A stretch of 64,000 nt of DNA from Rhizodiscina lignyota (lineage: Eukaryota), in assembly GCA_010015805.1 (NCBI GenBank), contig ML978130.1, positions 434,001 to 498,000 on the forward strand. Direction: 5' to 3'. Every line of letters begins with the position of its first letter. Position 1 is the stretch's first letter. Position numbers and translations under genes: made by a program. The notes beneath the pieces were generated by a model that did no database searches, was not told where the DNA came from, and saw nothing but the letters and a program-made list of their open reading frames with translations. This document shows, piece after piece, positions 7,101 to 53,900 of this stretch.

Positions 7101-8706
7101 TAGCCGGAACACCATGCACAGGCTGTATGCTTCCTTTGATGGGACTTGATGTTGTCGTCATTTCTGGGCGTCTTTCAAAGCCATTCTTCGATGAAGTCAT
7201 TGGAATCTCGATTGCATTGACATTCCTTAGACTCCTGCTACTCTTCGCTTTGTCGACGGATTGTTCTTCCTCAGATTCGTCAATGGAATCGTCGTCCGCG
7301 ATCTCGATGACTGGCTTCTGCTTCTCGGGAGAGCGCTGAAGGCCTTGTGCTGTCGCTGGTCGAGAGTTTGGCCGGGAACTAGAATGTTTCACACGCGAGC
7401 TTGACCTGAACTCCTGTAGAGGGATATCGACATCGAGGCTGTTCAGCGCGTCACTGCTAAGTTTAACATGAAGACGCTTCCGCTGCTCTCGTCTCTCTTG
7501 TCTTCTCATCTCTCTGTCAAACTCATCCTCAAATCCTTCCTCCGCGCGCATCCTCTCTTCCTCTTCCCTCATTCGTCTTGCCCTCGCCTCCTGAGACTCT
7601 TTCATTGTCCGATATGTTTCCAATGGCTCTGTGGCGGAACGCAATGGATCGCTTCGTATTTCTTTGACAGGGGATGATGTTCGAGGCAGCGGCGAACTGG
7701 GCTCTCCGTGGACGAAGTTTGGAGAAGGTCTTTCAAAAACAGGGTCGGATCGAACGCCTTCTGGGAGCGGGGAGGACGGCGCTTGTGTCTGATTAAACGC
7801 TTGAGTGAGCGAGATCAAGTCTTTTCCCGCGTTCTGCGCGAACATAGCGGCAAGCTCTGACCCAGGAGTCTTTGTCGCCGACGTCTTGGTCTGCGAAGTT
7901 TCTGCAATTGAGCTGAGAATTTGCCCTCGGTTGTCCCGCTTCCTTCCAGCCATCGCAGGAGTCTTTGGCACGATGAACGTAGCGGCCTTGACTCTGGATT
8001 GTGTCTCGGGACTCAAGCCAGACATGTGCTCATCATCAATGTCCGAGATGTTATCATCTCCTGCTTGTTGGTCCCATTCGCTTAACAAGTCAATTTGTCC
8101 ATTGTCTCCGTGCTGAACCGCTTCGCTCTCCTCTTCGCTTCTCACGGAGAAGCGTGAATTGTCCCCGGGTGCGTCGCGTGATCTATCGGTACTGCTCGTA
8201 ATCTTCTTGTATATCTGAGAGTCCATGGGCTGGGTGTCTCCAGCATCAACAAAGCCGGCGAAGCTATGCGCCATCCTCAATCGCGCCGGGGTGCCCTCCA
8301 TTGTGATTGGGGCTGCCGGTGACGACTTTGTAGGTATCAGGCGAGGGACATTGTCGCGCCGAACTGCAGAATGACGCGATCTATTTCGGTCGCGTACGTG
8401 GGGCGGAGAGTCGAAACTGTCTTCGACTGCTTGTTCGTGGTCTGCTTCTTCTGCCTGGGTAGAGTTGTCTCGAAGGGATCTTGGAGAAGTTTCGTCTTCA
8501 ATTTGGCTTTGAAACTGCTGCCTCATAGTGTCAGTGCGCATTGCGGCGTTTGGAGCCTCGAATTGATGGTGGCTGGAGCGCGGATCCTGTTCCGCCACAG
8601 AAGGATTGTGATTGTGTGACAGATCACTCACAGGTGCATAAATGAGCTGCCTCCTGATCTCAGCAAGCTGCTCGCTCCCTAAACTTTCGTCCATCGTTGA
8701 AGTCAT
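4162..8706 (-). CDS. RAD9: DNA-damage checkpoint mediator of the Rad9/Crb2/53BP1 family (tandem Tudor + BRCT)
   Basis: About 1500 aa, S/T-Q-rich disordered N-terminus. Tudor-like VFARFRGLNNYYPATCLG...VRFDDG, then BRCT SRRSKYLQALALGLPCLHYRWIQDC and C-terminal VIQSLILG. Start is 8706 or 8694. Confidence 0.85.
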   Translation of the reverse strand: MTSTMDESLGSEQLAEIRRQLIYAPVSDLSHNHNPSVAEQDPRSSHHQFEAPNAAMRTDTMRQQFQSQIEDETSPRSLRDNSTQAEEADHEQAVEDSFDSPPHVRDRNRSRHSAVRRDNVPRLIPTKSSPAAPITMEGTPARLRMAHSFAGFVDAGDTQPMDSQIYKKITSSTDRSRDAPGDNSRFSVRSEEESEAVQHGDNGQIDLLSEWDQQAGDDNISDIDDEHMSGLSPETQSRVKAATFIVPKTPAMAGRKRDNRGQILSSIAETSQTKTSATKTPGSELAAMFAQNAGKDLISLTQAFNQTQAPSSPLPEGVRSDPVFERPSPNFVHGEPSSPLPRTSSPVKEIRSDPLRSATEPLETYRTMKESQEARARRMREEEERMRAEEGFEDEFDREMRRQERREQRKRLHVKLSSDALNSLDVDIPLQEFRSSSRVKHSSSRPNSRPATAQGLQRSPEKQKPVIEIADDDSIDESEEEQSVDKAKSSRSLRNVNAIEIPMTSSKNGFERRPEMTTTSSPIKGSIQPVHGVPATASQPEQITQSAPKATQTIAIADSQKEKPESQKENDDPDIAEQPGSQQHQDLDEANTITQSQFSISSNTRDKFIARLRETETSSITDPPPHTSQVQEHIRPVQADVPSSPPMLTSDARDDYDEGHNQNDETPLAEAPKIVQNEKFFKDQQLNSGEPTNGQTTVPESGSSGEQKQSRPLRSRFKTNKETATTSTTGTTGTSASNDTTLFHTARSQRTPSPPRQAPSQVSPSKTQAPRSTRARKLTEIAADPTPNQSFDQIDIDIDLMTADDVEFTNMMSGSSPVLPSRKKRKVYTAKKTTAIKPAQLLKIPPSTPSSARRQNEEEEEEGPASSPKQKQEQEAALTTSPPARRREQIVPTVTQARLGATLQNPESTLRRPGKLTRPSRKTPARLQPLSSTDDMYDPRERQKPPSEVAETPQAKNPPSAGAVATVLDYVDTREPVEDNMDDIDIVGLDGSAEKLTPNRVFARFRGLNNYYPATCLGLAKSDSVRFKVRFDDGTVDFVESQYVRRLELRVGDVIKIDLPSMRKDHIVRGFKDRIDPVASAMEPTAFPITDEMGFTTLVLSAKQRDSLSASAAIAPAPTVEVPIFNIYLTATMWPHFDERIYTHPSTAIAPAATPTNHPLPLAPDTPPSRSRRPTISTFNNIRTRESSASSFRQESTLFANMAFAVSFKEETSSERRSTMRAIVENGATLLEYGFDSLFSLPSLDKSHHDTGELSEDPLKLKLSSTSLGFVALITEVHSRRSKYLQALALGLPCLHYRWIQDCVAAKKLLPWEKYLLPAGESAWLGGVVRSRVLTPYMPADAKLTDTVQTREKLFHTTLENGQTSGVLLLESSRVGGTKSSKKANSSTSKGNTFKALDERRKLFLFMTYAIGATRVRRVKDMDEARSVLEDDNNHQWSWLYVDGDVGTAEHALGGGRSLERAAGASATGRERKRKRGVETDGSLELEMANANKKVKVVSDEGVIQSLILGALVV

Positions 8707-8781
8707 TATGTCATCCACATCAACGCACAATGTGGATGTTTTGAGGCCTTTACATCGATTGAATTAAAAGCGGAGTTAAAA

Positions 8782-24806: not shown

Positions 24807-26898
24807 TTAGGATGCATTATTCAACATCACCCATTTCTTTTCCTTTTCCTTCGGCCCTACACGTGCTGCGATTGTGGACAAAGTGTTGTTGATAGCATCT
24901 TTCGGAAGATTTGGGAATCTGCATGTCATGTTAGCCGCACAATGCTCAAGGATCGCATTGACTGCTGGAATATCTAGGCACTAAAGCTCTAGTGGGGCAA
25001 AAGCCAGGCATCGAGCAGGGATCGCTTACTTTTTCTTCAGAGCCTCGACAAGGGCGATCTTTGTCAGATCACTGCCTTCGACTTCCTTCTTGAATTCTTC
25101 GAGATGCTCTGCTGGTATCATTCTCTTGGCAGGCTTTGGCGCGGCAGCACTTGGTTTGGCAGTCTTGAATGAGCCTGTAAATTCCTCCATGACCTTTGAG
25201 TTTCCCCCATTCGGCTTAGCCTGCAATGGCACACGCAATGGTGGCTGCATGAGACCAGTCATGTCCGACTGAGCAGCTGCGGGATTCGGTGATTCCTGCC
25301 AATAAGCAGTGGAGAAGGGATCGATTGTTGTCAGAGCTGGGTCTGCAGTGCCCGTTAGTAATGGAATCTCATGGCCAAAGAAGGTGAACATACCCAGCAA
25401 AAATCCAAGTCGGTAGTCATGGAATGTATTTGGAGCATCAAATCCATCCGCGGACTTCATTACTCCCGTATCATCGGCCCAGCAAAGTCCACTACAATCA
25501 GGCTCCAGATCAGTCGTGATAAGCGCTCTCTTTGCACGAAGGGCATCATCTGCATCATCTAAGAAGCCTTCCATATCATCATCGCCTTCAAGTGAGTCTC
25601 CGTCTTCTTCGCCATCTGAGTCGATATCCTCACCTTCTTCCGGTTCTTCCCATTCTGCCTCGGAGTCGTAGTCATAGTCAGCATCCGGGCGGGCACGCAA
25701 AAGTGGATTTCGCGCAATCCTCCGTGTCTCAGTTTCTGATATAGGTTTGGTGTAAGTCCCAGAATATGGAGGGCGGACATCCTCATGGAAGTGTATGTAC
25801 TTCATAGGAATTTGCTTCAACATCTGCGTTGGCGTCTCGTTGATGAATGCTGATTCCTCTTCCGTGAGGTCTATTGGGTTTCCAGACGAGCCATGCAGAC
25901 GGCTGATGATATCTTTAACGGGAATATCAACGTATTGTTTCGTCTCTGACCAACTAGCCGCAACGCGCTTCTTTAGATCCTCGAGAGCCATTGCCACGGT
26001 TAGTTCAGAGCCTTCTTCGAGTGGCAGTGAGTCTAGACGCTTCTGAATCTCTTGAAGTTCTTCGTCGCTCTTTGCATAGGCCGGAGGTCGAGCCATGGCC
26101 GCATTTGATGGTAGAGAAAATGGAAGAAAGAATTGGTGATACTCGGACTTCGGGGGCTTGGAGGGCGATACGGAGGGCTGAAGAGTGCCGTCGCCGTCGT
26201 CTCCATTAATCGTCAGACCCTCGTCGGTGGTGGATTTTGGAGGGCTTTTCGGAGCTGGTGAGGTTTTCGGCATGAAAAAGGCGTTGAGTCTCAGCTGCGA
26301 CTGTAATCTAGTTGTCAGAATAGAGTACCTTTCTAAGGTTTATACGTTTCGTTCTGTTTTTACTCACCCTCTCTTTCTTCTGTTTCTCTTCTTCCTCCTT
26401 CTGTTTCGCACGCTCTTTTTCCTGCTGCTTTTGCTGAGTCTCAAACTCCTTTTGTTTCTTTTTCTCTTCCCTTTCAGCACGCTTCCTCTGCTTCTCTTCC
26501 TCTTCTACCCTCTTCTCTTCGTCACGCTTTGCTTTTGCTTCAGCGCGCTCTTTTGCCTTGGCTTCCTTCTCTTGGCGTTGTGCCTCCTTCTCAGCAGAGG
26601 TCAGCTTTCGTCGCTTCTGAGGTACGGCACCTGGGACGGCGTTGGTAGTTTGCAGGGCTGCATTCTGGCTACCTGAGACTGAAGTGAGGGAGGAGAGGGA
26701 AGGCGAGACAGCTCGTGTCTGTGGATCTGTAGTCTTGGAAGGACTACCAGTGAGAGAGAGAACCGTAAGAGGCGTCGATAGGGATGACGTTGAATTTAGA
26801 GAGGCCTTGTCTGCAGTCTCTGGTAGACCTTGGGTTTCTCCATCCTCCAGAGGGCGTTTGCGTGATGGCGACGACATTGGTGCTGGAACTTCAGCCAT
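24807..26898 (-). CDS. RLF2: Chromatin assembly factor 1 large subunit (Cac1/Rlf2/p150), 4 exons
   Basis: KER coiled region, PIP-like SQLRLNAFF, MKYIHFHEDVRPPYSGT, DYDYDSEAEWEEPEEGED acidic domain, C-terminal winged-helix-like LVEALKKK/FP...KKW. Confidence 0.93.
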
Positions 26899-27176: not shown

Positions 27177-29008
27177 ATGGAGCTTGACGATGACATTGAT
27201 GAGCAGATGCTCTTTGAAGACACGCTCTTTGAAGACTCTTCACAACGATCGCTAACCACAGAGCTAACCGCATGGGAACAGCTTCCTGAGCAACTTCAAG
27301 GTTATCCTGAAGTTTCTCTTTCTAATTACGACCATGAATGTCTTTTCTTTGAATATGATCGACCTACCTCTAATCTTGATGATTTGACCCAGCTTTATCC
27401 AGTGGGTTCACAGAGTCACGACGCGAATGCCGACAGAACCACTGGCAAAGTGCAAGAAGCGGATTTGGAGATTTCTCGTATATCTTTGACCGCTGTCGAC
27501 AGACCTGTGTATGCAAGTTCGGGTCTGGCTGCGGCGTGCCAGCTGTTGGAGACTAACATGAGGTAGTAGGTCAACTATTGCTCGCATTGAAAATATCTTT
27601 GAATATCTCGCAAACTGTTTGACAAGTGGAAAGTCTCTTGGGATCAAATTGAAGAGAAGGGAACGAATATGCCAGTCGGAAGCAAACCAAACTGGTGATG
27701 CCAGGTTACCTTCACAGTCCTGGCAGATCGTACGGTTTCCTGGTCGTACGTTAGTCGAAGCGTGGAAGTTCTGTAAGCCTTCGCACGAAGTCATGAGTCC
27801 TCACTTCTTGCTAAGCTTCCACACAGCTGTCATTGTGCGAATCCTTGAGCTGATTCACGAATCATTGACTAAAGATGCTATCATAACAAAGCGGTGGGCT
27901 CAACATCTTGAGCTATCACAGCTAGCGGTACTGACGCTGATCATCTCAGTGACCTATACTATCGCCACCCTGCTTTGTTCGGCACTCAAGCTGTCGTTGA
28001 TCGATATGTTGATGACATTGCATGTACATTTGGCGTTCCGAGAGCGGCTCTCCATGTGGTACGCACTATTCATGTAGCATTCACGGAAAGGATAACTGAT
28101 GATGTCTTCCGCACAAGACCGCCGCGGCGAAGGGACTTGTTGCCGGCGCTTTTAATCTGTGCAATACGGACGGAACATTGATTGAGAGCGGCCTTAACCA
28201 CGAAGTATGACATAATGCAACGACCTTGCCGCACTCTGAGCTAATGGTTGGCAAGGGTATGCTTATCCGTAACTTCAAGAATGGAGAAACCGTCGACATG
28301 ATATCAGTCGAATGGATACTCGTGATAGAGAAAGAGGTAATGGCGCTTATCGCACTTTAGCTCCAACGCAATGCTAACGAGCCAGGCCACATTCCGAACT
28401 CTAGCCAGCTCTGATTTTTGGGATACCATTCGACGGAGGGCCATCGTATTAACTGTAAACTTATTGAGTCATAGCCTTAGCATTCACTAATGGTGTTTTA
28501 GGCAAAGGGATATCCAGATATTGCATCTCGCTCATTCTTGCGCCTCATCAGCTCTCCGTCCTTTCGCAACAGGTACTGCAGCCCACCAGTGTATGCCCTG
28601 GTTGACTTTGACCCTGACGGAATATCGATTTATTCGACGTACAAGTATGGATCGCTGGCGCTTGCCCACGAGAATCACAATCTGAATACCCCAGCGATGC
28701 AATGGATTGGGGTGAAGTCATCGGACTTGTTTTCCATTGCAGCCGAGGCGGATCTCCATGAGGCGGAAGGGCTGCTGCGACTCTCACTTCGGGACCGTTC
28801 AAAAGCTCAAAAGTTGATTGAGAGGCACATTGACTCAGAGAGTGATACTGATTCCGAGTTTATCTGCGAGCTGCAGACGATGCTCATGCTAAATGTGAAA
28901 GCGGAGATCCAAATATTGGAGGCGAAGGTCGGAGGGCTTGGCCAGTGGCTAGGGCGTCAGTCATTTGTTAAAGGTGTCATGCCTTCCTCACCGCTGCAGG
29001 ACGACTAG
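27177..29008 (+). CDS. SPO11: Meiotic recombination protein Spo11, 8 exons
   Basis: The spliced model stays in frame: TKRDLYYRHP (catalytic Tyr), AAAKGLVAG, VIEKEATF, KGYPD, VDFDPDG (Toprim), KAEIQIL. Confidence 0.95.
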
Positions 29009-34455: not shown

Positions 34456-34849
34456 TATTGGGTGCGAACCAACTTTAATTCGCTTTAATTTACTTTCAAG
34501 AAGCTAAAATTCTCACTACTACCTGTCACTCTATCATTATTGAGTATACAGACCGATTCCATTGGCTGATCTATGCGTTCCAGCGTTTCCTTGGCACGTC
34601 CAGAGCTTAAATACTATAGTGTTTCCAACTGCAAGAGTGTCTCTCTCCTCCTTGGTTCGAAGACCATGCCAGCGACTGTGATTGGTGAAGACAAACTAGC
34701 GGGAATCGGATCTTGATACGGTTAGCTCTCCTGCGGAGCGGCATCTACAAATCTCTCCGTCCCGCAAACGGGGTCGATGACTGTTCTTTTGTTTTAGAAT
34801 CTTTCACTTGGATTTATTCACATCCATTAAAGCGTTAATCACCTCCAAC

Positions 34850-35585
34850 ATGGCGCCAGAACCACAATGTATGTGCTCACCCAATGCCTTGCTGCGCTTC
34901 GATGCTGACCTTAATAGTGCCCTTAAATTTTGGCATGCTCTTATTTCCTGGGTTCCAAGCTCTTGATGTCTTTGGCCCGCTGGACTGTTTGAATATCTTG
35001 TCACAGTCGCACAAGATGAATCTCTCAATCATCTCCCAAACACGTGGGTCAGTCTCAACTGAACCACCAGAGTCGACGGGCCTGAATGTCCTTCAATCGT
35101 TCAACCAACATGTACTGGCGACTCACAGCACAGACGATGATGCGCCCGTAGATGTACTGCTTATCCCCGGAGGTTTGGGTCTCAGGGCTCCCGAGGCTGA
35201 ACTGGCACCGTATGTTGAGTACATCAAGAAAGTCGGGCCCCGATGTCAGTATATCATAACCATCTGCACTGGAGCCCCTCTTCTTGCAAAATCGGGAGTC
35301 TTGGATGGGAAGCGCGCGACTACGAACAAGGCTGCATGGAGATTTACGGCCTGGGGCCCAAAGACCGATTGGATTGCTAGAGCAAGATGGGTCCAAGATG
35401 GCAACATTTGGACTGCTGCGGGTGTGAGCGCAGGTATCGATGTCACACTAGCGTGGATTGGTACTGTATATGGCGAGGAGACCGCGACAGCTGTTTCAAA
35501 CCGAATGGAGTATAGAAGAGCTACGGACTCCACAGATGATCCATTCTCGGCGCTGCATGACTGTCAGGATGTTCCGGCGCAATGA
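34850..35585 (+). CDS. DJ-1/PfpI family protein (isocyanide hydratase-like), 2 exons
   Basis: FPGFQALDVFGP, DVLLIPGGLG, nucleophile ICTG, LDGKRATTNK, WVQDGNIWTAAGVSAGID. Confidence 0.92.
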
Positions 35586-36942
35586 CAATATGTAACCTGG
35601 TCCTGCTCTCCTCTGACAACAGTGAGATTGCAAGGCATTGCTACATAATGGAGCATGTTGACACAAAAATACGACGCGGAACTCTCACTTACTCAATGTC
35701 CTCATTTTCTAACGTTTCCTTTAGGTCGGACTTGCAACATTGCTCACAGGGATCGATGTTCAAATGCTCAATGCCCAATGCTACAATACTGGATTAAGAC
35801 GAGCTCCTCCGTGACGATGCTGCAGGGCCCATTGACTGAGACGGTCGAAATTCTTACACGTATGGATGCATCTGAAATCCGGAATACCACTTCTCGCTGC
35901 GCCACTTTCGAAAGACGGAACAGGAGAGATGGCTGCTGCGCATTGGACGCTTTGTTGAAGATGATCGGTGCAATGGTCTAAGTTTGCTATCATTAATCAG
36001 TTATTTATCTTCTCTAGCTCATATCCCCATGCACTGAAGTATTGCTTACAACATGAAGTCGGTGGTGTTATGGCGTGTCAGGATCATGATAATGGTCTGA
36101 TAACGTGGCTTTGCGAACCATATTCTGAGGGCCTCGGGCGCTCAGTAAAGAATCTCCAAGATAGCGAATGGGATCAGACAGTGTTGCAGGAGATGCATCA
36201 AACGTACAATACAGTGAAACTGGAGTCTGGGGGTATGCGTCTAATGATATCAAGTATAATCTGGTCCTTGGGCTGTAAGTATAGGTGTGCTTCGCATCTT
36301 CATTTGACAGAATGACTCCAGAGCATCGAATGAGAACATTGTCGAATAATAGCACTACTCGGCCAGTCAACATGAAACTCTGACGTTCAACAGACAATTT
36401 GTATCAGAGACGCTTCTTTTTCGGTATCAAGCTCGATACGCCCCTGACTATGGGCGCTCACAAGGCAGTACCTCAGGCATCCATCACATATTTTTGAACT
36501 CATCCCTCCTGATGACTCGACAAAACGCAACTATTCCACGTATTAATCACAACAAGTTGACACCGTCCGCCAAAATTGCGGTCTTTTTACTTATGTTCCA
36601 TACATTATCAGGTACAGGGAGATCGAATATCGTGGAATTGTGGTGATGTGTTGTTTGTTGACGTCAAAAACAACATAAGAGTGCCTTTCTTCGCGCCTCT
36701 CGGACCTTCCCCCTAACAACGCAATCAACATCACTGCTGCTCTTTCCTCTACTACCCGGGATTGTGACTACTGTACCACAAGGCGTACTAAACTCTTTAC
36801 CAAGCTTTGTAAAATCCTCAGTTCCCAACAGTTTACTATCAGTTGATCTAATGCTCATTTAGTGTTGCCCTGAACCTCTCACCACGACGCACCCTCAAAT
36901 TCGACCTTATCCTTCTAACTTCAACATTGTCATCCTATCATT

Positions 36943-37989
36943 ATGTCCACCTCAATAACCCAAGAGTCTCTGTCAGCGTGTCTCGTGGACGAGTACACAA
37001 TCAAAAACAACGCGAGATCAGACTTCCATATTCAGCTATCCAGAGCCTCTGAAGGACCTGAATGTTCATGGTACCATCTGCAGACCGTCGAAACTGCCCA
37101 GCTGCGGAATGGCACTTTCAAAAGATACAACGTAGTTTCAGTCTATCACCCTGTCTCTCATCGGGCAGGCCAGAAAGATGCTCCGGAGATGCAACCTTCC
37201 TACGCGGTTATCTTGGAGATCAAAGAGCGGCCAAAGTCCATTGGGGCGGACACAAGCAAAGAACACATCTTTTTGGTGTCGTGGATGTATCCATGGCCAG
37301 CGACCTCATTGTCGCGCCCTGCTTCGATACCTGGCACCCGAGAACCTTGGTGGGTGGAAAGTACCTCCCTGGATATCATTCGCTGCGATGTGGTATCACC
37401 CCATTGGAATGGTCCATGGAGCAAGGAACGTATCTTCGACAGAAGCCGCATGGAAATAGTGAGGTATGATGACAGGAACATGGAGTGGTATTACCAGCTG
37501 CAAGTACATGGAACCCGGTGTTGGCACACTGGCCTGACTACTCCATTACAGCAGCCGCGAATACCATGGCCAAAGCGACGGCCGATCGCAAAAACGTCGG
37601 CACAGCTTGAATATTCTCCTGTGGAAACACTCACTGCGCAGTCGACCTCACCACCAACCTTGCTGCATTCCTCCCAACTCATCGAACGCCAATCTTCGTT
37701 CCCTCCAGCTACTTCCAATGTCAATCCAGGATTGCTCGTACCCGCGCTAGAGTCCAGATTGACGAATGATGGGAGGGAACGGCGAGCAGGAAACAATGGA
37801 CAAACCGAGCCCCGGATATGGACAGAAAGCGATGAATGTGAGCTCTTGGAGTTGAGAAGGACCAATCCCGGAAGTTGGCGAAAGCTCGCGCGAGAATGGA
37901 AGAGAACTCACGTGGAGAGGAGCCCCAAAGCTCTCAGACAACGCTTCCAACGCATCAAAAATCGACAAGCGGGATGCCAGCCTAAATGA
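36943..37989 (+). CDS. BAH-like domain + C-terminal Myb/SANT-like domain protein (paralog A)
   Basis: YAVILEI...FLVSWMY...STSLDII; C-terminal WTESDECELLELR...SWRKLAREW...RSPKALRQRFQRI. Confidence 0.7.
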   Translation: MSTSITQESLSACLVDEYTIKNNARSDFHIQLSRASEGPECSWYHLQTVETAQLRNGTFKRYNVVSVYHPVSHRAGQKDAPEMQPSYAVILEIKERPKSIGADTSKEHIFLVSWMYPWPATSLSRPASIPGTREPWWVESTSLDIIRCDVVSPHWNGPWSKERIFDRSRMEIVRYDDRNMEWYYQLQVHGTRCWHTGLTTPLQQPRIPWPKRRPIAKTSAQLEYSPVETLTAQSTSPPTLLHSSQLIERQSSFPPATSNVNPGLLVPALESRLTNDGRERRAGNNGQTEPRIWTESDECELLELRRTNPGSWRKLAREWKRTHVERSPKALRQRFQRIKNRQAGCQPK

Positions 37990-38222
37990 AGCCAAACAAA
38001 TGTCCTTAAGTGTCCGGTAAGCAAGTTATGGCCCGCTCTTGGCACATATTCTAATATGTTACGGTAACGGGGCTTTTACGGGGCTCCAGCTCTTAATCAA
38101 ACAGCTCTTCACTAACACACGACAGTTTGCCTATAGATATTTCTCTCTACAACATCCTTCTTCCTCTTTCTCTTCATAGTGTTCTTCCGGGAACTCCGAG
38201 GAAATCTGCGTTCATTCCCGCA

Positions 38223-39086
38223 ATGGCACCCGGCAAGACAGAAAACACATTGTCGAACTGTGTTGCGGACGATTTCATGATCAACCACAATTTCAGATCA
38301 AACTTTCAAGTCAAACGCGTCTCTTTCACCAACCTGCAGGACGTCGACCAGGACGCTTGGTACAAATTGCAAACCGCAAAGACTGCAAAAGTCAATAACG
38401 TGGAATACCGCATTGGCGATGTTCATGCTGTACACAGAAGAGGTGTTCATCGGGATAAAGCCGACGGTCCTCCATCGCAACACTCTTACGCTGTCATTCT
38501 TGATATTCGACTATTTCAATCGCAAAACTTCCACACACACACCGAACCATTCTTCCTAATCGCGTGGATGTACTCTAAACACCTCACTCTTCGACACACT
38601 TGGGACTTCTGGGATTCCCAGATTGGCTATGGCGTTTGGATTCTCAGTAACTCGCTCGATATTGTCTCCGCATCGGCTTTCACGAACTGGAATTTGGGGG
38701 AATGGACAAAGGAATGGATCATCGATTGGAACGCGAAGCAAATTGGCAGGATGAACGATCCAGACATGAAGTGGTTGTGCGACCTTGCTACTCCACGGAC
38801 AGGCAATGGTGATATTCGTTCGGCAGGCGCGAGGTGGGCTGCAACGGTGAGCGAGGAGCGGAAGCCAGGTTTGGGTTCGTACACGCCAGCAGAAGATAGC
38901 ACGATCATCGATCTCAGGGAGAATCAAAAACTTTCGTGGAAAGATATTGTCGTTGAGTTTGCGAAACTTCACGCACCGCGAGAGAGGAAGAGCATCGCGC
39001 AGAGATATCAGCGATTCCTCTCTCGTCAGAGGCACACTGAAATGGGAGAAGTGAATGAAGACGGCGACAAAGACGACGAATCCTGA
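38223..39086 (+). CDS. BAH-like domain + C-terminal Myb/SANT-like domain protein (paralog B)
   Basis: YRIGDV, YAVILDIR...FLIAWMY...ILSNSLDIV; C-terminal YTPAEDSTIIDLRE...LSWKDIVVEF...RERKSIAQRYQRF. Confidence 0.72.
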   Translation: MAPGKTENTLSNCVADDFMINHNFRSNFQVKRVSFTNLQDVDQDAWYKLQTAKTAKVNNVEYRIGDVHAVHRRGVHRDKADGPPSQHSYAVILDIRLFQSQNFHTHTEPFFLIAWMYSKHLTLRHTWDFWDSQIGYGVWILSNSLDIVSASAFTNWNLGEWTKEWIIDWNAKQIGRMNDPDMKWLCDLATPRTGNGDIRSAGARWAATVSEERKPGLGSYTPAEDSTIIDLRENQKLSWKDIVVEFAKLHAPRERKSIAQRYQRFLSRQRHTEMGEVNEDGDKDDES

Positions 39087-40289
39087 GCATACTTGTCCTT
39101 CATCGTCAGGTTTAGCCCAAAACTGAGCGGGAACCGGCTGTAAATAGAGAGGACTTTCGACCGAGCATGATATCACAGTGATTAGCACTGAACCCCTAAC
39201 CTTATTCGTCCACTTTTATGTTCCGCTCCGAGAAATTGCCTGTTTCAGATTTACGGAGCGTCCTCCGTCAAGAGTCTGAGCCGCGAGTGGAGTCCCGAGC
39301 CACGAGAGAAGACTTGAGCTCGAATTTGGAGCATCCCGAGCAGACCTGAGCAGCACACCATCGTACATACACTTGAACAAATCCAGGATTCCTCTTGAGC
39401 TGCTTTTTGTGATCTAGTTCTGGCCCAAGAGCAGCACAGTGGGCCTGTTTCGGAAAGACGCCCGCCCAAAGGACCAGGTTCCCCTTGAGAGCGATCCCTA
39501 ATTTCAACTACCCCACAGTGGCTTTTAGCAGGAAACAACGCACACCAGAGGGTAACCCCGACAATGTCGACCACTCAAGTCCTACGACGGCCTGTGGAGT
39601 GTTGCACGCGCTTGCCACAGCGGGTTGTTTCTTATATTAAGGATGTGAGGCAAGGGTGCCACAGATCTCGGTTGCAATGGAAAATCCATCTGGCAAACGC
39701 CACAGCTCCTTAGCGTACTTCATGTCTTTGCCAAAAGCTACGGTAGCAGAAACGCCTCCAGGAAACAAATCCTCCAGGAAACATGCTACCGCCGATCCGG
39801 TACAGTATGCTGTGAAACTCCCTTTGTCGTTCTCCTTCTCGGTCGTACCTTGTGGCGTGTAATTCGACCCGCTGTGGACCAAGTACTTGTCCTTCACAAT
39901 TGTTTCAATTAAATCCCCCAATCAAAGTCCTTTGAAACAGCCACTTCTGTTTATAACTAGTTTTATGTCCACTAGCCTGCTGAAAGTTTGGCGCTTGAGA
40001 TATAGAGTAGAGTACTCCTAAACAGGGTAGGGGGGACGGCATTTGCGCAAGCCGCTGTACGATCGCAAAAATCGATGTCCAGCATCTGAAGCCATCGAAA
40101 TAGGATGGGCGCGGCTACACCCATGGATGCCGCTGCATGGAATTGGAAGCGGCCGAGCCGGCGCTCCTATTGAGGTGGGCCCGTGAGTGGTTTGGATGAA
40201 TACAAAGATGGGACATGCGCAGCTTTCCTATTCCCAGCATTCACGAGGGAAAAGCACTCAACCGCCTGGACGCGAAGAAGCCTCTCAAG

Positions 40290-41615
40290 ATGCTTTGCAT
40301 TCTGTTCATTGTAGCCAGCCTCGCCTGGCGCGGGGCGGCTCAATCGGTTTTTGCTCATGTTATTGTACGTCACCTCCGCTCCCAGATATTCATGGGGCTA
40401 ACTGCTTGACAGGTTGGGAATACCTACAGCTATACCCAGGATTCATGGGCAGCTGATATTAAGAAAGCTGCGGCCGCTAGCATCGATGGCTTTGCTCTAA
40501 ACATTGGTTACACGGACACCACCAATTCGAACGGAATGGTTCAGAATCAATTGAACAATGCCTACAATGCTGCCGACGCCGCCGGGTTCAAGATGTTCAT
40601 CTCCTTTGACTATGCTGCCGAAGGAGCATGGGATGAAAACACCGTCATCTCGACCATCCAGGCGTACAGCGGTCGTTCCAGCCAGTTCCTCTACGGAAAC
40701 AACCAGCCTCTTGTCTCGACCTTCGAGGGCCCTAACAACGCCCCCGACTGGTCCACCATCAAGAGCCAAACGAACTGCTTCTTCATGCCCGATTACTCCA
40801 GCCAGGGAGCGACCGGTGCAGCCAACGAGCCCAACATCGATGGGCTGTTGAGCTGGGACGCTTGGCCGAACGGTGCGAACGACATGACTGACAGTGACGA
40901 CAAAGCCTACGTGGCGGCGTTGAATGGCAAGCCATACATGATGCCGGTCAGCCCTTGGTTCTACACAAACCTGCCTGCATACAACAAGAACTGGCTCTGG
41001 CGCGGCGATGATCTTTGGCATGACCGCTGGCAGCAGGTTCTTGATGTTAATCCCAGCCTCGTTGAGATCCTCACCTGGAACGACTACGGCGAAAGCCACT
41101 ACATATCTTCTCCGCAAAGCGAGGCTGAGCTTCCCACTGGCTCCAACGTCTACGTCGATGGCATGCCGCACGATGCGTGGCAGAAAGACCTGCCGTACTA
41201 TATCGCCGCTTACAAGAAGCAGCCTGCACCTAGCGAGCCTCATGTGACGGTGTGGTACCGCCTGAATCCTGGAACAGCCTGCTCCGCCGATGGAACAACA
41301 TGTAACACGATCACGCAGGGCCAGACCGAAGTGCCACCTCAGAACTGTGACATCGATGCTGTCTTCTTCACCGCATTCGTGCCTTCAACTGTCACTGCCA
41401 CGGTCTCGGTTACTATTGGTGGGGGTAGCTCTCAGAGCGTCACTGCTTCATCACCGGGTATCTTTCACTCGAGCGTTCCATTCAGCGGTCAGACGGGTAA
41501 TGTGACGATCTCGGTGTCAGGGAGCGATGGATCAACCATTGGGCCAGTAGAGGGTGCTGCGATCACATCTCAGTGCCAGAACGTCAATTGGAACGCATGG
41601 GTTGGCGGCTCATAG
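40290..41615 (+). CDS. Secreted alpha-1,3-glucanase/mutanase (GH71), 2 exons
   Basis: Signal peptide, VFAHVIVGNT, IDGFALNIG, FISFDY, PLVSTFEG, YMMPVSPWFYTNL, ILTWNDYGESHYI, MPHDAW. Confidence 0.95.
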
Positions 41616-49357: not shown

Positions 49358-50979
49358 GATGAAGTCTAAGGTAAGAAGTAAGACAGTTCGGTGCAGTTTT
49401 GTGACTGTCGCTATGGCTGAGCGAAGCGAATGTCAGTATCTGGAGCAAGCAGCGTCGACATACTTTGGTTTGTTGTTTGTGTTAATGTTCGGTGAGGTTT
49501 CTACTTTCTTTCGTGGAAGAAAGGAAAAGAACAAGTGTAGTGTTCTGGGGAGAGTTTAATTTAAAAGAAATATGACTTGGCACAAGAGTATTTAAATGTT
49601 AACGACATGGAAACCCAAACACACTACCTGCCCCGCCTGCGCGCCTCTGGCCAATGGAAAACGAATTGCTGCCTCCAACTCTACGGAGGAGCCAGTTTAC
49701 GGTGAGTGAATAATGTACATAGCCACCATTGTGCAGTTCCCTTCTGCAATTCCCAGAAGCTTCCGCATATAAGTGAGTTCAAATTTGATACTGTGAGGAG
49801 GTAGCTTACGAAACCTGCCTCAGAAGATTTACTTCCTGTTATCGTAAAAAAAGAGTTGATTAAAAATTTCATACGCTCACGAGAAATTAGCTCCTTTGTG
49901 ACACACATCGTAACAAGAGTCATCCAATCTACAAGGCTCTTAGCATCTCTTGTGCTCTCAACATGGTTTAGAACATAACCTGTCCTGCATCGTTACCTCT
50001 CGCACTCCGTTTCCTTCAAATGCCGTTGTAAAAGTCACTGTCTGGTCAATCTGTCGTCCGAAGATATACTGCTGATCGCGGTCCAGGATAAGTTTTGAGC
50101 TTTACCAGAACGAGAGTTTGGACGACAAACAGTCCAGCACGAATAAGCGTGAGAAGAATGCTCACAAAGAGGATGGATTTGGACATGGGTGCTTGAGCTG
50201 GATGTCGTTTTGGGCTCTGACGTTTGAAATTATCGAGCTTTGGGACAGAAGCCGACGTCGGCAAGACTTGAGACTTGGGAACGCTTTCCAACTCAGCGGC
50301 CTGCACTGAAGCTCATGGTCACAATCTTATTATGCACATTTCCCGTTGGACGAAGGTGAGTCAAATGAAGGAATCAACGAAAGAAGACGCCAAAGTGAAC
50401 CCTTCGAACATCTACAATTGCTTGTTGGCAGCTATCCGAAGACATCTGGAATTGGTTGGGCATCGGGCCCTTTACGAGATGTGGCGCACTGGAATACGAG
50501 GCCACCTCGTGCAGTGTCAAGATGCTTGATTGGAGAGTGGCACAGCAGCGTCGGCAGCAAAAGAGCATGGAGACAAAGGGCAGGATTCAGCTGCTCGGTA
50601 TGTAGGATGTCCAAAGTGCCGCGTTGACGTTGATATCGATGACGGGTACGAGGGTAGCGGAAAGCCTATTTTCAGGGGCAGCACATTGTCCAGTGTGCGG
50701 TCTCATGTAAGCAAGGAAGGCCTGGTGGAGCGGATCACGTGCGCCGACAGGGCCTTTTCTCGGTTTTTCGCATTTTAACCGAAGGCAACGTCTGTGGATG
50801 GATGCCCATGCATCGAGAGACTGGGAAGGACGGTAGCAGCGACACCCAATTGTCGCGGTGTCGCCTTGCTGCTTTGCAGATGCCCTCCAATCTCCACTCC
50901 ATTCCCTCACGCATTGCGATGGCTTCACCTTGCATGCGGAATACACGGCACTCTCCCGCGGGCGTTTCATGACACGAAA

Positions 50980-53900
50980 ATGTCCGCGTCGCCGCGCTTA
51001 TCGGCAGACGCCGAGACACCCATGAAGAGGCTCAAGAACGCCGGCACGCCAGAGCGCTTCGTGTGCGACCAATGTCAGCGCTCGTTCGGACGCGTCGAAC
51101 ATCTCAAGAGACATCTTGGCAGCCATACGGAGGAGCGCCCGTTCAGATGCTCAATATGCAACAAAAGCTTTCTTCGGAACGACACCCTCCAGCGTCACGA
51201 GCAGATCCACAACGACGACAATGTAAAGCTAAAGCCGAAAGGAGCTCGAGCTTGCCTAGAATGCGCCGCTGCGAAGGTCAAGTGCTCCAACACTGTCCCG
51301 TGTGCGCGGTGTAGCCACAAGTCTCTTGTCTGCAATTATCCGACATCGGGACCACCTCCTTCAGTCGCGGAGCCGAGAGGACCGCCTTGCGGCTACAAAG
51401 TCGATTTCAGTCCTGGTGGAGTTGACCAAGATTCCACCAGCAACACCACCAGTGAGCCTCTGCCATTCGGTACTGCGACGGGAATCGCACAGCTTGCCGA
51501 CAGATCACCCGTCGAGCGTGTCTCAGCGAGTACATCAAAGCCCGCAGTGACCAATTCGCAAGATTATCACAGTAATGCTGGATATACTGTGACAAGCCGC
51601 CCCTTTAAACGATCGTCCACTGCTGGAAGCATTTCAAATCCAGCCGATGTTCAACTTTCGCAAGTTTCACCCGACGCTTGGGAACAGAAGAATTTGCGAG
51701 GGAAGAATTGGATGTCAAACTCGCACACGTCCGATCCTGGCACTGGACCTATCCTGACTCCCGTATCAAAAGACAGCCCATCGCAGCCCAAGAGCCACGT
51801 TCCAGTTAGGGTAGGAGGAGGAAGCAGTTCATCTAGAACGGGCGACGACAGCTCTACGAGTGCCAGCAAGAAGTGGCTTGAAACCGTTACCGGAGATCCG
51901 CCAGTTGCAAAACTTGCAAGTTCTTCATCACGATCTTCACAGCCGCATTCCGGCACAAGTGAATATTATGTCGAGGGGGATGGTTCGCGCCTCGCCAAGA
52001 TGAGCTACAGGCGAAGGCCTAATAATGTCCGGCAAGGCTCGCAACCCAATCTGGACACCAAAAGCTCAGCCGTAACTTCAGATGGAGGCTATGGATTTCC
52101 ATCCACGCCGATCCCCTGGCGCGAGATACCTACCCTGCAAGTTTCCCCAAGACAGCTTCTTGATGACAAGACGTACCAAATCCTTCGAAAGCACTTTGAG
52201 ATTCTTTGCCTTAAGGAATACATCTCTCATCCAGCGTTTGTTTCCGATCATTTTCCAACCCGTGACAACTTCAACATGCTCATCTTGCTTTATCTGGAGT
52301 CTTTTCAGCCAATCTTGCCAATTTTCCACGTTCCATCACTCAATCTATCTCAATCCCACTGGATTATATCCCTTGCCATGGCTTCAATCGGATGTCAGTT
52401 TACTGAGATGGAAAATTATGATCCCTTCTCATCATCAATATACGAGTTCCTCTATCGCGCCATTATGTACGAGGTATGATGAATCTTCAGACCGCTGAAT
52501 GTTGCTGTTTACTAAACTACCCTGAAGGACGAGAATGAGCTCGCACCTTCGAGCGCGCGGCCTCTGGAGATAGCTCAGGCGAGGCTTGTCCTGTCCCTCT
52601 CCCTCACTTACTCTCATATGGGGAGCGAGTTGATCTATAAAAGAGCTAGATCGATTCATAAAGACTTGGCACACTTCTGTTACCGTGAATGGTACAACGG
52701 AACTGCTGACACAGAAGTCCAGCTGCCTGACGATTCAAATCGTGAAGCTGTGACGATAGCCTGGTACAAATGGAAGGACGCGGAGCTCACACGGCGGATG
52801 GGATACTCTGTTTGGGTGAGTTCCACGTCGTTTGTTTCTTTTCCCTGTTCTCAATGGCACTGTTAACGGTTCTACAGTTACTGGACTGCATACTAGCGTA
52901 TCACATCAACCACAGACCGCGGCTTGAAATAAGAGATGCAACAGTTCCTCTGCCATGTGCGGAGTTATTGTGGGAGGCTAAGACCGCAATGCAATGGCAA
53001 CAAGCTCTGCCTTATTCGGCGCGTGAGTAAACTTCCTCGACAAATCTTCACTCTCTAACAAACAGCACAGCTTCTCCTTCACTTGCTTCTGCTCTCGAGA
53101 GCATTTACATCGAGAAGAAGTTGCAGCCCACAATGGGCGAATTTAGCCGCATCATCATGATACACGGGCTGTACCAGCGCCTCTATGAAGTCAGAAAACA
53201 CTTGACACAGCCACTCACATATTGGACGCCGACCGCGGCACGAGCAAAGCCGGAAGAAGTTATCCCGAAAGACTTGTGGCTTCCTGGGATACCGATGTAC
53301 TGTAACTGGCGCAACAGCACCTGTGACAGTCTAGATATTTTGCACTGGAGCGCTAGCAGTGTTATTGGCGCTGCTTCTGGCATGGAGCATCCCACCGTTG
53401 CGCATCTCCACTTGTCGCGGGTTATTCTCCTCATACCAATTGAGGACATTCAAAGATTCGCTTGCGGAATTTCCGGCGTCAGGGTCGCACCACGCGAACA
53501 GATTTCCGCTCTTCGTAAGGTTGTCCGTCGTTGGGCGCTTGAGGACTATCACAAAGCTCGGCTTGCCATCGTCCACGCTGGCTGCATATTCTGGCACATC
53601 CGGCGATATTCTGCAAGCGCTTTTTACGAGCCTCATGCAGTACTTCTTGCGGGACTTTCTTTGTGGGCATACGGTATGTTCACGGATCGCGAGCATTCGG
53701 AACCAGAAGCCACAGAGCCTTCGTTTGCCGAAGATGAGACATCGCTGCCTGCCTCGATCAACCTTGACAGGCCATGTGATGATGAGCTGATACAGACGTT
53801 CATCAGAAGAGGTGGGAAAATGCTGGCCATGATGAGTGGAGTGGGAGATGTGTGCAGCCTTGAGGGCCCGAAGCGGATACTAGAGGAGGCGATCAAGCTA

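What the first reader, a model, noticed from the sequence alone, without database searches (positions are those of the whole stretch)
36943..39086. Tandem intronless gene pair with an unusual BAH-like + Myb/SANT-like architecture: candidate new chromatin reader module
Seen: two adjacent same-strand ORFs about 230 bp apart align along their length (LS.C..D...I..N.RS.F; WY.LQT..TA; SYAVIL(E/D)I; FL..WMY; SLDI; G.W.KE.I.D; D..M.W). Each ends in a three-helix Myb-like pattern. They are very diverged yet both frames are open, which implies selection. Known: fungal and plant BAH-PHD proteins (EPR-1, BP1, EBS/SHL) read H3K27 methylation through an aromatic cage that includes the W-x-Y seen here. Inference: these proteins carry a Myb/SANT-like domain where that family has a PHD, so they could couple histone-mark reading to DNA binding, perhaps as a heterodimer. 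The first cage aromatic appears shifted by one residue, so ligand specificity may differ.
Basis: partly seen in the sequence, partly recalled or inferred. Interest (0 to 1): 0.75.

Follow-up and report, generated by a model that had tools for sequence, protein, structure and literature searches.

The report
Tandem orphan BAH-like/Myb-like gene pair
Two neighbouring genes of the fungus Rhizodiscina lignyota are old, diverged copies of one gene found nowhere else so far, each ending in a Myb-type DNA-binding domain and starting with a beta-rich domain that may be a very divergent BAH chromatin-binding fold, which I could not confirm.

Summary
ORF1 (36943-37989, 348 aa) and ORF2 (38223-39086, 287 aa) are open, 233 nt apart on the same strand, and homologous from Met1 to the C-terminal domain (BLASTP E=7e-27 and 4e-7). 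Synonymous sites are saturated while replacement sites are not, so the duplication is old and both copies stayed under selection.

The C-terminal domain is Myb-like: Pfam PF13921 scores above its cut-off in ORF2 and below it in ORF1.

The BAH reading of the N-terminal domain is not confirmed.
- For it: only protein-language-model look-alikes and a Y...WxY...SxD pattern with BAH-like spacing.
- Against it: Pfam and PDB sequence searches gave no BAH match, and both AlphaFold models were unusable (14, 42).
- By that spacing mapping (no alignment), the histidine that defines H3K27me3-reading BAH domains is a serine in both copies.

A BAH-plus-SANT/Myb combination is not new; fungal Snt2/SntB and animal MTA1 have it. 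The family itself looks orphan: the only database relative is the public record KAF2095949.1, a 647-aa model that fuses both ORFs through a doubtful 37-nt intron.

Verdict: a real, lineage-restricted gene pair, probably two genes. Its role as a chromatin reader is speculative. Moderate-to-low interest.

The parts
36943..37989 (+). Gene 1 (ORF1, 348 aa, P0001): N-terminal beta-rich BAH-like domain, a roughly 100-aa S/T/P/Q-rich basic linker, and a C-terminal Myb-like domain
   Evidence: Open frame; paralogue of ORF2; forms exon 1 of public model KAF2095949.1
36943..37512 (+). ORF1 N-terminal conserved domain (residues 1-190), candidate divergent BAH fold
   Evidence: 32% identity to ORF2 1-188, E=7e-27; ESM Atlas top hit 0.91, 187/256 features, 26 of 30 hits in BAH-bearing sets; no Pfam BAH hit
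37201..37374 (+). ORF1 candidate cage and specificity residues: Y87 (37201-03), W114 (37282-84), Y116 (37288-90), S142 (37366-68), D144 (37372-74)
   Evidence: Positions checked. Mapped by spacing onto AIPP3 Y149/W170/Y172/H198/D200 and PtSHL Y41/W63/Y65/H88/D90 (passages of PMC7718874 and PMC6013494). This is inference, not an alignment.
37513..37812 (+). ORF1 linker (residues 191-290), pI 10.2, contains PKRRP at residue 210 (NLS-like, my reading)
   Evidence: no counterpart in ORF2 (gap in alignment A3)
37819..37968 (+). ORF1 Myb-like core (residues 293-342; aromatic triad W293/W312/F335), pI 11.2
   Evidence: PF13921 E=5.5e-4, 20.5 bits (below the cut-off of 22.9), plus weaker PF13837 and PF00249 hits; 30% identity to the ORF2 Myb core, E=4e-7; pI
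37838..37874 (+). 37-nt 'intron' of the public fused model. It lies inside the ORF1 Myb domain and shifts the frame. Probably an artefact.
   Evidence: Mapping of P0003 onto the window and the sequence GTGAGC...GGAAG: I see no CTRAY-type branch site, and AAG stands at the 3' end
37990..38222 (.). 233-nt spacer between the two ORFs. The public model places a 163-nt intron at 38017-38179 (GTAAGC...CACTAAC...CATAG).
   Evidence: Such signal combinations are not rarer than in shuffled sequence, so its reality is open.
38223..39086 (+). Gene 2 (ORF2, 287 aa, P0002): the same domain order with a short linker and an acidic tail
   Evidence: Open frame. Homology to ORF1 begins at Met1 (M1, T6, L10, S11, C13 invariant).
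38223..38792 (+). ORF2 N-terminal conserved domain (residues 1-190), candidate divergent BAH fold
   Evidence: ESM Atlas 0.91, 179/256 features, 24 of 30 hits in the BAH-bearing set; the low-confidence AF2 model places strands between residues 54 and 187
38487..38660 (+). ORF2 candidate cage and specificity residues: Y89 (38487-89), W115 (38565-67), Y117 (38571-73), S144 (38652-54), D146 (38658-60)
   Evidence: the same spacing argument as for ORF1 (inference)
38880..39029 (+). ORF2 Myb-like core (residues 220-269; aromatic triad Y220/W239/Y262), pI 9.7, followed by an acidic tail
   Evidence: PF13921 E=7.4e-6, 26.5 bits, above the gathering cut-off of 22.9; pI

Best explanation
These are two separate, intronless, anciently duplicated genes of Rhizodiscina lignyota. 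They encode small proteins, probably nuclear, with the same two-domain plan. The N-terminal domain of about 190 residues is tryptophan-rich and predicted to be beta-rich; it is most likely a very divergent BAH-type fold. A disordered basic linker follows, and then a basic single-repeat Myb-like three-helix domain. The most likely mode of action (inferred, not shown) is a chromatin adaptor: the Myb-like domain contacts DNA, and the BAH-like domain contacts a nucleosome or histone tail, possibly a methyl-lysine through a Tyr/Trp/Tyr pocket. An EPR-1/EBS-type H3K27me3 specificity is unlikely, because the histidine that reads H3P30 appears to be a serine. The public 647-aa protein that joins both ORFs is most likely a gene-prediction artefact.
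For: Shown:
- Both frames are open, and 0 of 1000 shuffles give an ORF of 287 codons or more.
- The two are paralogous over both domains (E=7e-27 and 4e-7).
- pS is 0.84 (saturated) against pN 0.395, with the third codon position least conserved. Both copies were therefore kept as coding sequence for a long time.
- Homology starts at Met1 of both ORFs and ends just after the Myb core, which fits two complete genes.
- The fused model needs a 37-nt intron that cuts into the ORF1 Myb-like domain and shifts the frame. That ORF1 domain is homologous to the ORF2 Myb-like domain and has its own Pfam hit.
- PF13921 scores above its cut-off in ORF2.
- The Myb cores are basic, pI 11.2 and 9.7.

Supporting the BAH reading:
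- ESM-Atlas feature hits score 0.91 with 179 and 187 of 256 shared features. 24 of 30 and 26 of 30 hits fall in sets of fungal clusters where part of the members carry PF01426.
- The strand-rich stretch 54-187 of the low-confidence model is about as long as a BAH domain, which PMC13068663 (passage) gives as 120-140 residues.
- The conserved Y-x26/27-W-x-Y-x25/26-S-x-D pattern compares with Y-x20/21-W-x-Y-x22/25-H-x-D in PtSHL and AIPP3.

Context: ordinary core genes lie around the pair (DJ-1/PfpI, GH71, Spo11, CAF-1 subunit A, Crb2-like), and no flanking repeats were found.
Against: - No BAH match came from Pfam at E<=10, for 2 full proteins and 6 sub-segments.
- The PDB sequence searches gave 0 hits for the pair profile and 0 for ORF2. 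ORF1 gave only non-significant SETDB1 Tudor hits, E=0.56.
- Both AlphaFold models are unusable (mean pLDDT 38.7 and 32.1), and Foldseek on them gave nothing at E<=0.001.
- The ESM-Atlas calibration was not measured for parts of proteins. Shuffled proteins reach 0.9 in 4-10% of cases, and the two queries are paralogues, so they are not independent.
- The ORF1 Myb hit is below Pfam's cut-off.
- No relatives exist to test conservation: 1 hit among 1.84 billion representatives, and that hit is the same locus.
- The public annotation reads one gene, and the pipeline behind it may have used transcript data that I could not see.
- DNA binding, histone binding and nuclear location are all inferred.
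Confidence: 0.55

Rival explanations
1. The N-terminal domain is not a BAH fold. It is either a new lineage-specific beta-rich domain or another SH3-like barrel such as a Tudor. On this reading the proteins are simply members of the large fungal pool of small Myb-like proteins with a private N-terminal extension.
For: Every profile or sequence test for BAH failed. The only HMM-type hints in the N-domain are to the SETDB1 Tudor: Pfam Tudor_4 at E=0.12 on ORF1 residues 152-184 and PDB chains at E=0.56. Earlier notes of this scan describe clusters of small diverged Myb-like genes in this genome and in another Dothideomycete (unchecked leads).
Against: The Tudor hints are not significant and are absent in ORF2. 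Language-model features of both copies point to BAH-bearing clusters and share more than 170 features. The tool says that count is reached by 9 in 10 true family members against 1-2 in 10 chance hits. The motif spacing also fits BAH.
Confidence: 0.3
2. The public model is right. One gene gives a 647-aa protein with two BAH-like domains and a single Myb-like domain, made by splicing out 37838-37874 and 38017-38179.
For: NCBI record KAF2095949.1 (P0003) has exactly this structure. The second intron has a good GTAAGC 5' site, a CACTAAC branch-like site, a pyrimidine tract and a TAG.
Against: The first intron is only 37 nt. I see no branch-site consensus in it, and it ends in AAG. From recall, fungal introns are rarely under about 40-45 nt. 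That intron deletes helix 1 and frame-shifts the rest of a domain that is homologous to the ORF2 Myb domain (E=4e-7) and hits Myb models itself. Homology between the copies starts at each Met1, and the 14 extra residues the model places before the ORF2 Met have no counterpart in ORF1. Intron-like signal combinations are no rarer in shuffled sequence.
Confidence: 0.12
3. The pair are EPR-1/BP1/EBS-type readers of H3K27 methylation in which a Myb/SANT domain replaces the PHD finger.
For: A conserved Tyr...Trp-x-Tyr triad and an Asp lie at BAH-like spacing in both copies (compared). The language-model features are BAH-like.
Against: PMC7718874 (passage) names the aromatic cage together with a conserved His and Asp as the key features of H3K27me3-reading BAH domains. 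By spacing, the His position is Ser142 or Ser144 here. There is no sequence similarity to any solved BAH chain, including 7CCE, 5ZNR and 6VIL. There is no PHD finger. Whether this fungus has PRC2 could not be checked, because no genome is held.
Confidence: 0.08
4. The ORFs are non-functional: decaying duplicates or chance frames.
For: No relatives are known outside this locus.
Against: 0 of 1000 shuffles give frames this long. Replacement changes are far fewer than the saturated silent changes, and both frames are intact after a very old duplication. A Myb-like domain is recognisable in both.
Confidence: 0.03

Closest known systems
Fungal Snt2/SntB (S. cerevisiae and S. pombe Snt2; Aspergillus and Penicillium SntB)
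   Same: A BAH domain and a SANT/Myb-type three-helix domain sit in one fungal chromatin protein (PMC7160234, passages), with BAH N-terminal to SANT.
   Different: SntB also carries three PHD fingers and is a large protein (size recalled). The proteins here are 287-348 aa, have no PHD hit at E<=10, have no detectable sequence similarity to any annotated protein, and their BAH assignment is unconfirmed.
MTA1/2/3 of the NuRD complex (BAH-ELM2-SANT-GATA)
   Same: The order is the same, with BAH at the N-terminus and a SANT-type domain downstream (PMC4244562, abstract and section list).
   Different: No ELM2 or GATA finger. MTA is an animal family. The MTA SANT domain works with ELM2 to recruit HDAC1, and nothing comparable is detectable here.
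H3K27me3-reading BAH proteins: Neurospora EPR-1, Fusarium BP1, plant EBS/SHL/AIPP3, mammalian BAHD1/BAHCC1
   Same: A possible Tyr/Trp/Tyr cage and a conserved Asp at similar spacing.
   Different: The His of the His-x-Asp pair is Ser in both copies by spacing. The loop between the first Tyr and the Trp is 5-6 residues longer. There is no PHD finger and no HMM-level similarity.
Divergent stand-alone fungal BAH-like 'hypothetical proteins' (ESM-Atlas clusters of 113-262 aa, Ascomycota and Basidiomycota)
   Same: These are the nearest neighbours of both N-domains by language-model features (0.89-0.91). Like the proteins here, most members escape the Pfam BAH model, which is found on only 19-32% of members.
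   Different: The Atlas listing shows no Myb/SANT family for those clusters. Their sequences could not be fetched, so no alignment was made.
Small fungal single-repeat Myb-like proteins (Pfam PF13921 Myb_DNA-bind_6)
   Same: The C-terminal 50 residues match PF13921 and carry a 19/23-spaced aromatic triad.
   Different: Here the Myb-like repeat follows a conserved domain of about 190 residues. No member of that pool was found by sequence search.

Membership tests
BAH domain (Pfam PF01426) | Match to the family HMM at or above the gathering score | tested here: not met
   No PF01426 row at E<=10 for P0001, P0002 or for 6 N-terminal segments.
BAH domain (Pfam PF01426) | Beta-rich distorted-barrel fold of about 120-140 residues that superposes on solved BAH domains | tested here: inconclusive
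   AF2 models have pLDDT 38.7 and 32.1. The second shows strands only between residues 54 and 187. Foldseek against PDB gave no match at E<=0.001. In one search, PBRM1 BAH1 (6oxb, E=3.6) and ZMET2 (4ft2, E=6.1) appear among noise and are not counted.
BAH domain (Pfam PF01426) | Sequence similarity to any solved BAH chain | tested here: not met
   hmmsearch with pair profile A1: 0 of 177,635 distinct PDB sequences at E<=10. phmmer with P0002: 0 hits. phmmer with P0001: only SETDB1 Tudor, E 0.56-0.78.
BAH domain (Pfam PF01426) | Language-model neighbourhood of BAH-bearing clusters (supporting evidence, not a defining feature) | tested here: met
   P0002 1-195: 0.91, 179/256 features, 24 of 30 hits. 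P0001 1-195: 0.91, 187/256 features, 26 of 30 hits. The three top clusters are the same for both.
H3K27me3-reading BAH subfamily (EBS/SHL/AIPP3/BAHCC1/BAHD1/EPR-1/BP1) | Aromatic cage: one Tyr plus Trp-x-Tyr | tested here: inconclusive
   Y87/W114/Y116 and Y89/W115/Y117 are conserved. The Tyr-to-Trp distance is 26-27 against 21-22 in AIPP3 and PtSHL. The mapping is by spacing only.
H3K27me3-reading BAH subfamily (EBS/SHL/AIPP3/BAHCC1/BAHD1/EPR-1/BP1) | Conserved His-x-Asp that reads H3S28/H3P30 | tested here: not met
   At the matching spacing both copies have Ser-Leu-Asp (S142/D144 and S144/D146), against H198/D200 and H88/D90. Caveat: this rests on the same spacing-based mapping.
H3K27me3-reading BAH subfamily (BAH-PHD form: EPR-1, BP1, EBS, SHL) | PHD finger after the BAH domain | tested here: not met
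   No PHD family at E<=10. The C-terminal domain is Myb-like.
Myb/SANT-like domain (Pfam PF13921 Myb_DNA-bind_6) | HMM match at or above the gathering score | tested here: met
   P0002: 26.5 bits against a cut-off of 22.9, E=7.4e-6. P0001: 20.5 bits, below the cut-off, E=5.5e-4, but homologous to the P0002 domain (E=4e-7).
Myb/SANT-like domain (Pfam PF13921 Myb_DNA-bind_6) | Three regularly spaced aromatic residues in a three-helix bundle | tested here: inconclusive
   The triad is present: W293/W312/F335 and Y220/W239/Y262, spacing 19 and 23. The single-sequence AF2 model gives helices 239-250 and 252-275 at pLDDT 56-78, but helix 1 is not modelled.
Snt2/SntB and MTA families | Additional PHD fingers (Snt2/SntB) or ELM2 and a GATA finger (MTA) | tested here: not met
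   Neither protein matches any of these families at E<=10.

The most novel reading that the evidence does not exclude
The pair is a lineage-restricted, minimal 'reader plus DNA binder'. The BAH-derived domain keeps a Tyr/Trp/Tyr methyl-lysine pocket but has Ser in place of the H3P30-reading His, so it reads a different mark or a non-histone ligand. It is tethered to a basic Myb domain. The two ancient paralogues act as a pair with different linkers and tails.
Probability: 0.12. Interest if true: 0.6.

Novelty: new variant of a known kind. Interest (0 to 1): 0.3.

Why it matters
If the N-terminal domain is a BAH fold with a working pocket, these would be among the smallest proteins that join a histone-reader-type module directly to a DNA-binding-type module. 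They would also show how far BAH sequences can drift beyond the reach of HMMs. That bears on how many fungal 'orphan' genes are really fast-evolving chromatin factors. In practice the locus also points to a probable error in the public annotation, where two genes are merged through an implausible 37-nt intron. As it stands, function is untested and the domain combination has precedents, so the importance is modest.

Tried and rejected
- Homologue searches all came back empty except for the locus itself.
  - Word-index searches: P0002 gave 210 candidates and 0 hits. Pair profile A1 gave 123 candidates and 0 hits at E<=1. P0003 gave 3776 candidates and only itself.
  - Exhaustive phmmer of P0001 against 1,835,955,588 representatives found only P0003. 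P0002 was not searched exhaustively, because the cap is one job.
  - Two metagenome scans matched 422 and 213 pattern stretches, and tblastn confirmed none.
  - Earlier notes of this scan hold no look-alikes by sequence or by place.
- No whole genome is held. Genome-wide paralogues, synteny and the presence of PRC2 therefore could not be checked.
- Structure: the single-sequence AF2 model had pLDDT 38.7 and the two-sequence alignment gave 32.1. Foldseek against PDB on both gave nothing at E<=0.001, and those matches are meaningless at this confidence. VIA-align was not run, because it sets aside stretches under pLDDT 60.
- Expression: no RNA holder was listed. X1 is a DNA contig identical over the stretch laid (34500-41500) and is probably the source. 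X2 is a 249-nt DNA piece with 1 difference.
- I tried to judge the intergenic 'intron' from splice-signal statistics. The signal combination is as common in shuffles (mean 72) as in the window (46), so the test says nothing.
- dN/dS proper cannot be computed, because pS exceeds 0.75.
- A profile-profile test against a BAH alignment could not be run, since no BAH sequences were obtainable with the tools left.
- Heterodimer prediction was not run. I make no binding claim, and the monomers do not fold confidently.
- In print: three literature searches listed no paper whose title or abstract start describes a small fungal BAH-Myb family. I read only the listings for this point.
Full report
**1. 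What is there**

The window holds two same-strand open frames: ORF1 at 36943..37989 (348 aa, P0001) and ORF2 at 38223..39086 (287 aa, P0002), separated by 233 nt. BLASTP aligns residues 1-186 of ORF1 with 1-188 of ORF2 at 32% identity (64/198, E=7e-27). It aligns the last ~50 residues before each C-terminus at 30% identity (15/50, E=4e-7). A tblastn of both proteins against the whole 64-kb window finds no third copy; everything else scores E>=0.13.

Frames this long do not arise by chance. None of 1000 shuffles of 36501-39500 gave an ATG-ORF of 287 codons or more (median 94, maximum 257).

**2. Age and selection**

On 178 aligned N-terminal codons, Nei-Gojobori counts give pS=0.84. That is above the 0.75 saturation limit, so dS cannot be computed. 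pN is 0.395. For 52 Myb codons pS is 0.84 and pN is 0.55. Nucleotide identity by codon position in the N-domain is 0.53/0.65/0.36.

The duplication is therefore very old. Both copies still have intact frames, and replacement changes lag far behind silent ones. That is the signature of purifying selection on both copies. A numerical dN/dS cannot be given.

**3. One gene or two**

The only relative found in any database is P0003. This 647-aa protein is NCBI KAF2095949.1, 'hypothetical protein NA57DRAFT_59014' of Rhizodiscina lignyota, and it is a singleton cluster. Mapping it back to the window (sequence) shows that it is this very locus read as one gene:

- exon 36943-37837
- a 37-nt intron at 37838-37874
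- exon 37875-38016, in another frame
- a 163-nt intron at 38017-38179
- exon 38180-39086

Several points argue against this model:

- The 37-nt intron begins GTGAGC but ends GGAAG, and I can see no branch-site consensus in it.
- It removes the first helix of the ORF1 Myb-like domain and frame-shifts the rest.
- That domain is homologous to the ORF2 Myb-like domain and hits three Myb models on its own.
- The homology between the copies begins at residue 1 of each (M1, T6, L10, S11, C13). The residues that the fused model places before the ORF2 Met have no counterpart in ORF1.

I therefore read the locus as two complete genes and the public model as a probable merge.

The second intron has good-looking signals (GTAAGC, CACTAAC, a pyrimidine tract, TAG), so it could be a UTR intron. 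However, a count of such signal combinations found them no rarer in shuffled sequence (46 in the window against a shuffle mean of 72), so this remains open.

RNA evidence was not obtainable. No RNA run was listed, and the two runs laid are DNA contigs. One is identical over the stretch laid (34500-41500) and is probably the source; the other is a 249-nt piece.

**4. The C-terminal domain**

Pfam PF13921 (Myb_DNA-bind_6) matches ORF2 residues 221-270 at 26.5 bits, above the cut-off of 22.9 (E=7.4e-6). It matches ORF1 residues 293-339 at 20.5 bits (E=5.5e-4, below the cut-off). ORF1 also gives weaker PF13837 and PF00249 hits.

Both copies carry an aromatic triad with spacing 19 and 23: W293/W312/F335 and Y220/W239/Y262. 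The 50-residue cores are basic, with pI 11.2 and 9.7. ORF2 adds an acidic tail. ORF1 has a 100-residue S/T/P/Q-rich basic linker that contains PKRRP.

From recall, a basic surface fits a DNA-binding Myb-like repeat better than an acidic histone-tail-binding SANT domain. This is inference.

**5. The N-terminal domain**

This is the crux of the finding, and it stays unresolved.

Against BAH:

- Pfam gives no PF01426 row at E<=10, for the two proteins or for six N-terminal segments.
- A profile of the pair finds 0 of 177,635 distinct PDB sequences at E<=10.
- phmmer of ORF2 against PDB finds nothing.
- phmmer of ORF1 finds only SETDB1 Tudor chains at E=0.56-0.78, over residues 150-185. This is echoed by Pfam Tudor_4 at E=0.12. 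Neither is significant, and neither is seen in ORF2.
- AlphaFold2 failed twice, with mean pLDDT 38.7 from a single sequence and 32.1 from the two-sequence alignment. Foldseek on those models returned nothing at E<=0.001.

For BAH:

- The ESM-Atlas feature search places residues 1-195 of both proteins next to the same three fungal clusters of 'hypothetical proteins' (113, 164 and 262 aa), in which 19-32% of members carry PF01426.
- Top scores are 0.91, with 179 and 187 of 256 shared features. 24 of 30 and 26 of 30 listed hits belong to BAH-bearing sets.
- By the tool's own calibration, 170 or more shared features is reached by 9 in 10 true family members and by 1-2 in 10 chance hits. The same calibration notes that shuffled proteins reach 0.9 in 4-10% of cases and that nothing was measured for parts of proteins. 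The two queries are paralogues and count as one piece of evidence.
- Two weaker points agree. The low-confidence model puts strands only between residues 54 and 187, about the 120-140 residues given for BAH domains (PMC13068663, passage).
- The conserved pattern P-S-Y-A-V-I-L...F-L-x-x-W-M-Y...S-x-S-L-D-I has a BAH-like layout.

I put the BAH fold at roughly 60-65%.

**6. Is it an H3K27me3 reader?**

Passages of PMC7718874 and PMC6013494 give the key residues:

- AIPP3: Y149, W170, Y172, H198, D200
- PtSHL: Y41, W63, Y65, H88, D90

PMC7718874 names the aromatic cage together with the His and Asp as the key features of H3K27me3-recognising BAH domains. Mapping by spacing alone gives:

- ORF1: Y87, W114, Y116, S142, D144
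- ORF2: Y89, W115, Y117, S144, D146

The triad and the Asp can be placed. The His is Ser in both copies. There is also no PHD finger. EPR-1/EBS-type specificity is therefore unlikely. A methyl-lysine pocket of other specificity remains possible. This mapping is inference without an alignment.

**7. Known architectures**

BAH combined with SANT is not unusual.

- MTA1 has four characterised domains, and the review's section list names BAH, ELM2, SANT and a GATA-type finger (PMC4244562, abstract and section list).

What differs here is the small size, the absence of PHD, ELM2 and GATA, and the extreme divergence.

Earlier notes of this scan are unchecked leads. They mention arrays of divergent stand-alone BAH-fold genes in another Dothideomycete, and clusters of small Myb-like genes in this genome and in Phyllosticta.

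Three literature searches listed no paper whose title or abstract start describes a small BAH-Myb family. I read only the listings for this point.

**8. Context**

Neighbours are ordinary core genes:

- DJ-1/PfpI (34839-35582, +), just upstream
- a GH71 glucanase (40410-41612, +), just downstream
- an alcohol dehydrogenase and an aldo-keto reductase
- further upstream, a Spo11 fragment, CAF-1 subunit A, cysteinyl-tRNA synthetase, GCD14, Ysc84 and a Crb2/Rad9-like checkpoint protein

No terminal repeats flank the pair, so a mobile-element origin is not indicated.

**9. Verdict**

- Myb-like domain: yes.
- BAH-like domain: plausible but unproven.
- 'New architecture' and H3K27me reading: not supported.
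- Heterodimer: untested.

The most likely picture is two old tandem paralogues that encode small chromatin- or DNA-associated proteins restricted, as far as public data show, to this poorly sampled fungal lineage, with a mis-merged public gene model. I rate interest at 0.3. It is a new variant of a known kind.

Noticed in passing
window 37838-37874 and 38017-38179: The public protein KAF2095949.1 (647 aa) merges ORF1 and ORF2 through a 37-nt intron inside the ORF1 Myb-like domain and a 163-nt intron in the spacer. The first looks like an annotation artefact. The second has good splice signals and might be a UTR intron.
   Followed up: partly
window 37390-37500 (ORF1 residues 150-185): Weak, non-significant resemblance of the end of the ORF1 N-domain to the SETDB1 Tudor domain (PDB phmmer E=0.56; Pfam Tudor_4 E=0.12). 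It is not seen in ORF2.
   Followed up: partly
window 4165-8763 (-): A long open frame with Crb2-type Tudor, Rad9 Rad53-binding and BRCT domains: a Crb2/Rad9/53BP1-like checkpoint protein. It looks ordinary.
   Followed up: no
window 25029-26339 (-) and 28502-29005 (+): CAF-1 subunit A (dimerisation and Cac1_C domains) and a Spo11/Top6A Toprim fragment lie 8-12 kb upstream of the pair. Nothing links them to it.
   Followed up: no
window 50779-52476 (+): An open frame that combines C2H2 zinc fingers with a fungal Zn2Cys6 cluster domain.
   Followed up: no
window 37288-37536: A 249-nt contig from a second, unrelated DNA run (X2) matches ORF1 with one T>C difference at 37465. The same or a very close fungus therefore occurs in another sample.
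   Followed up: no
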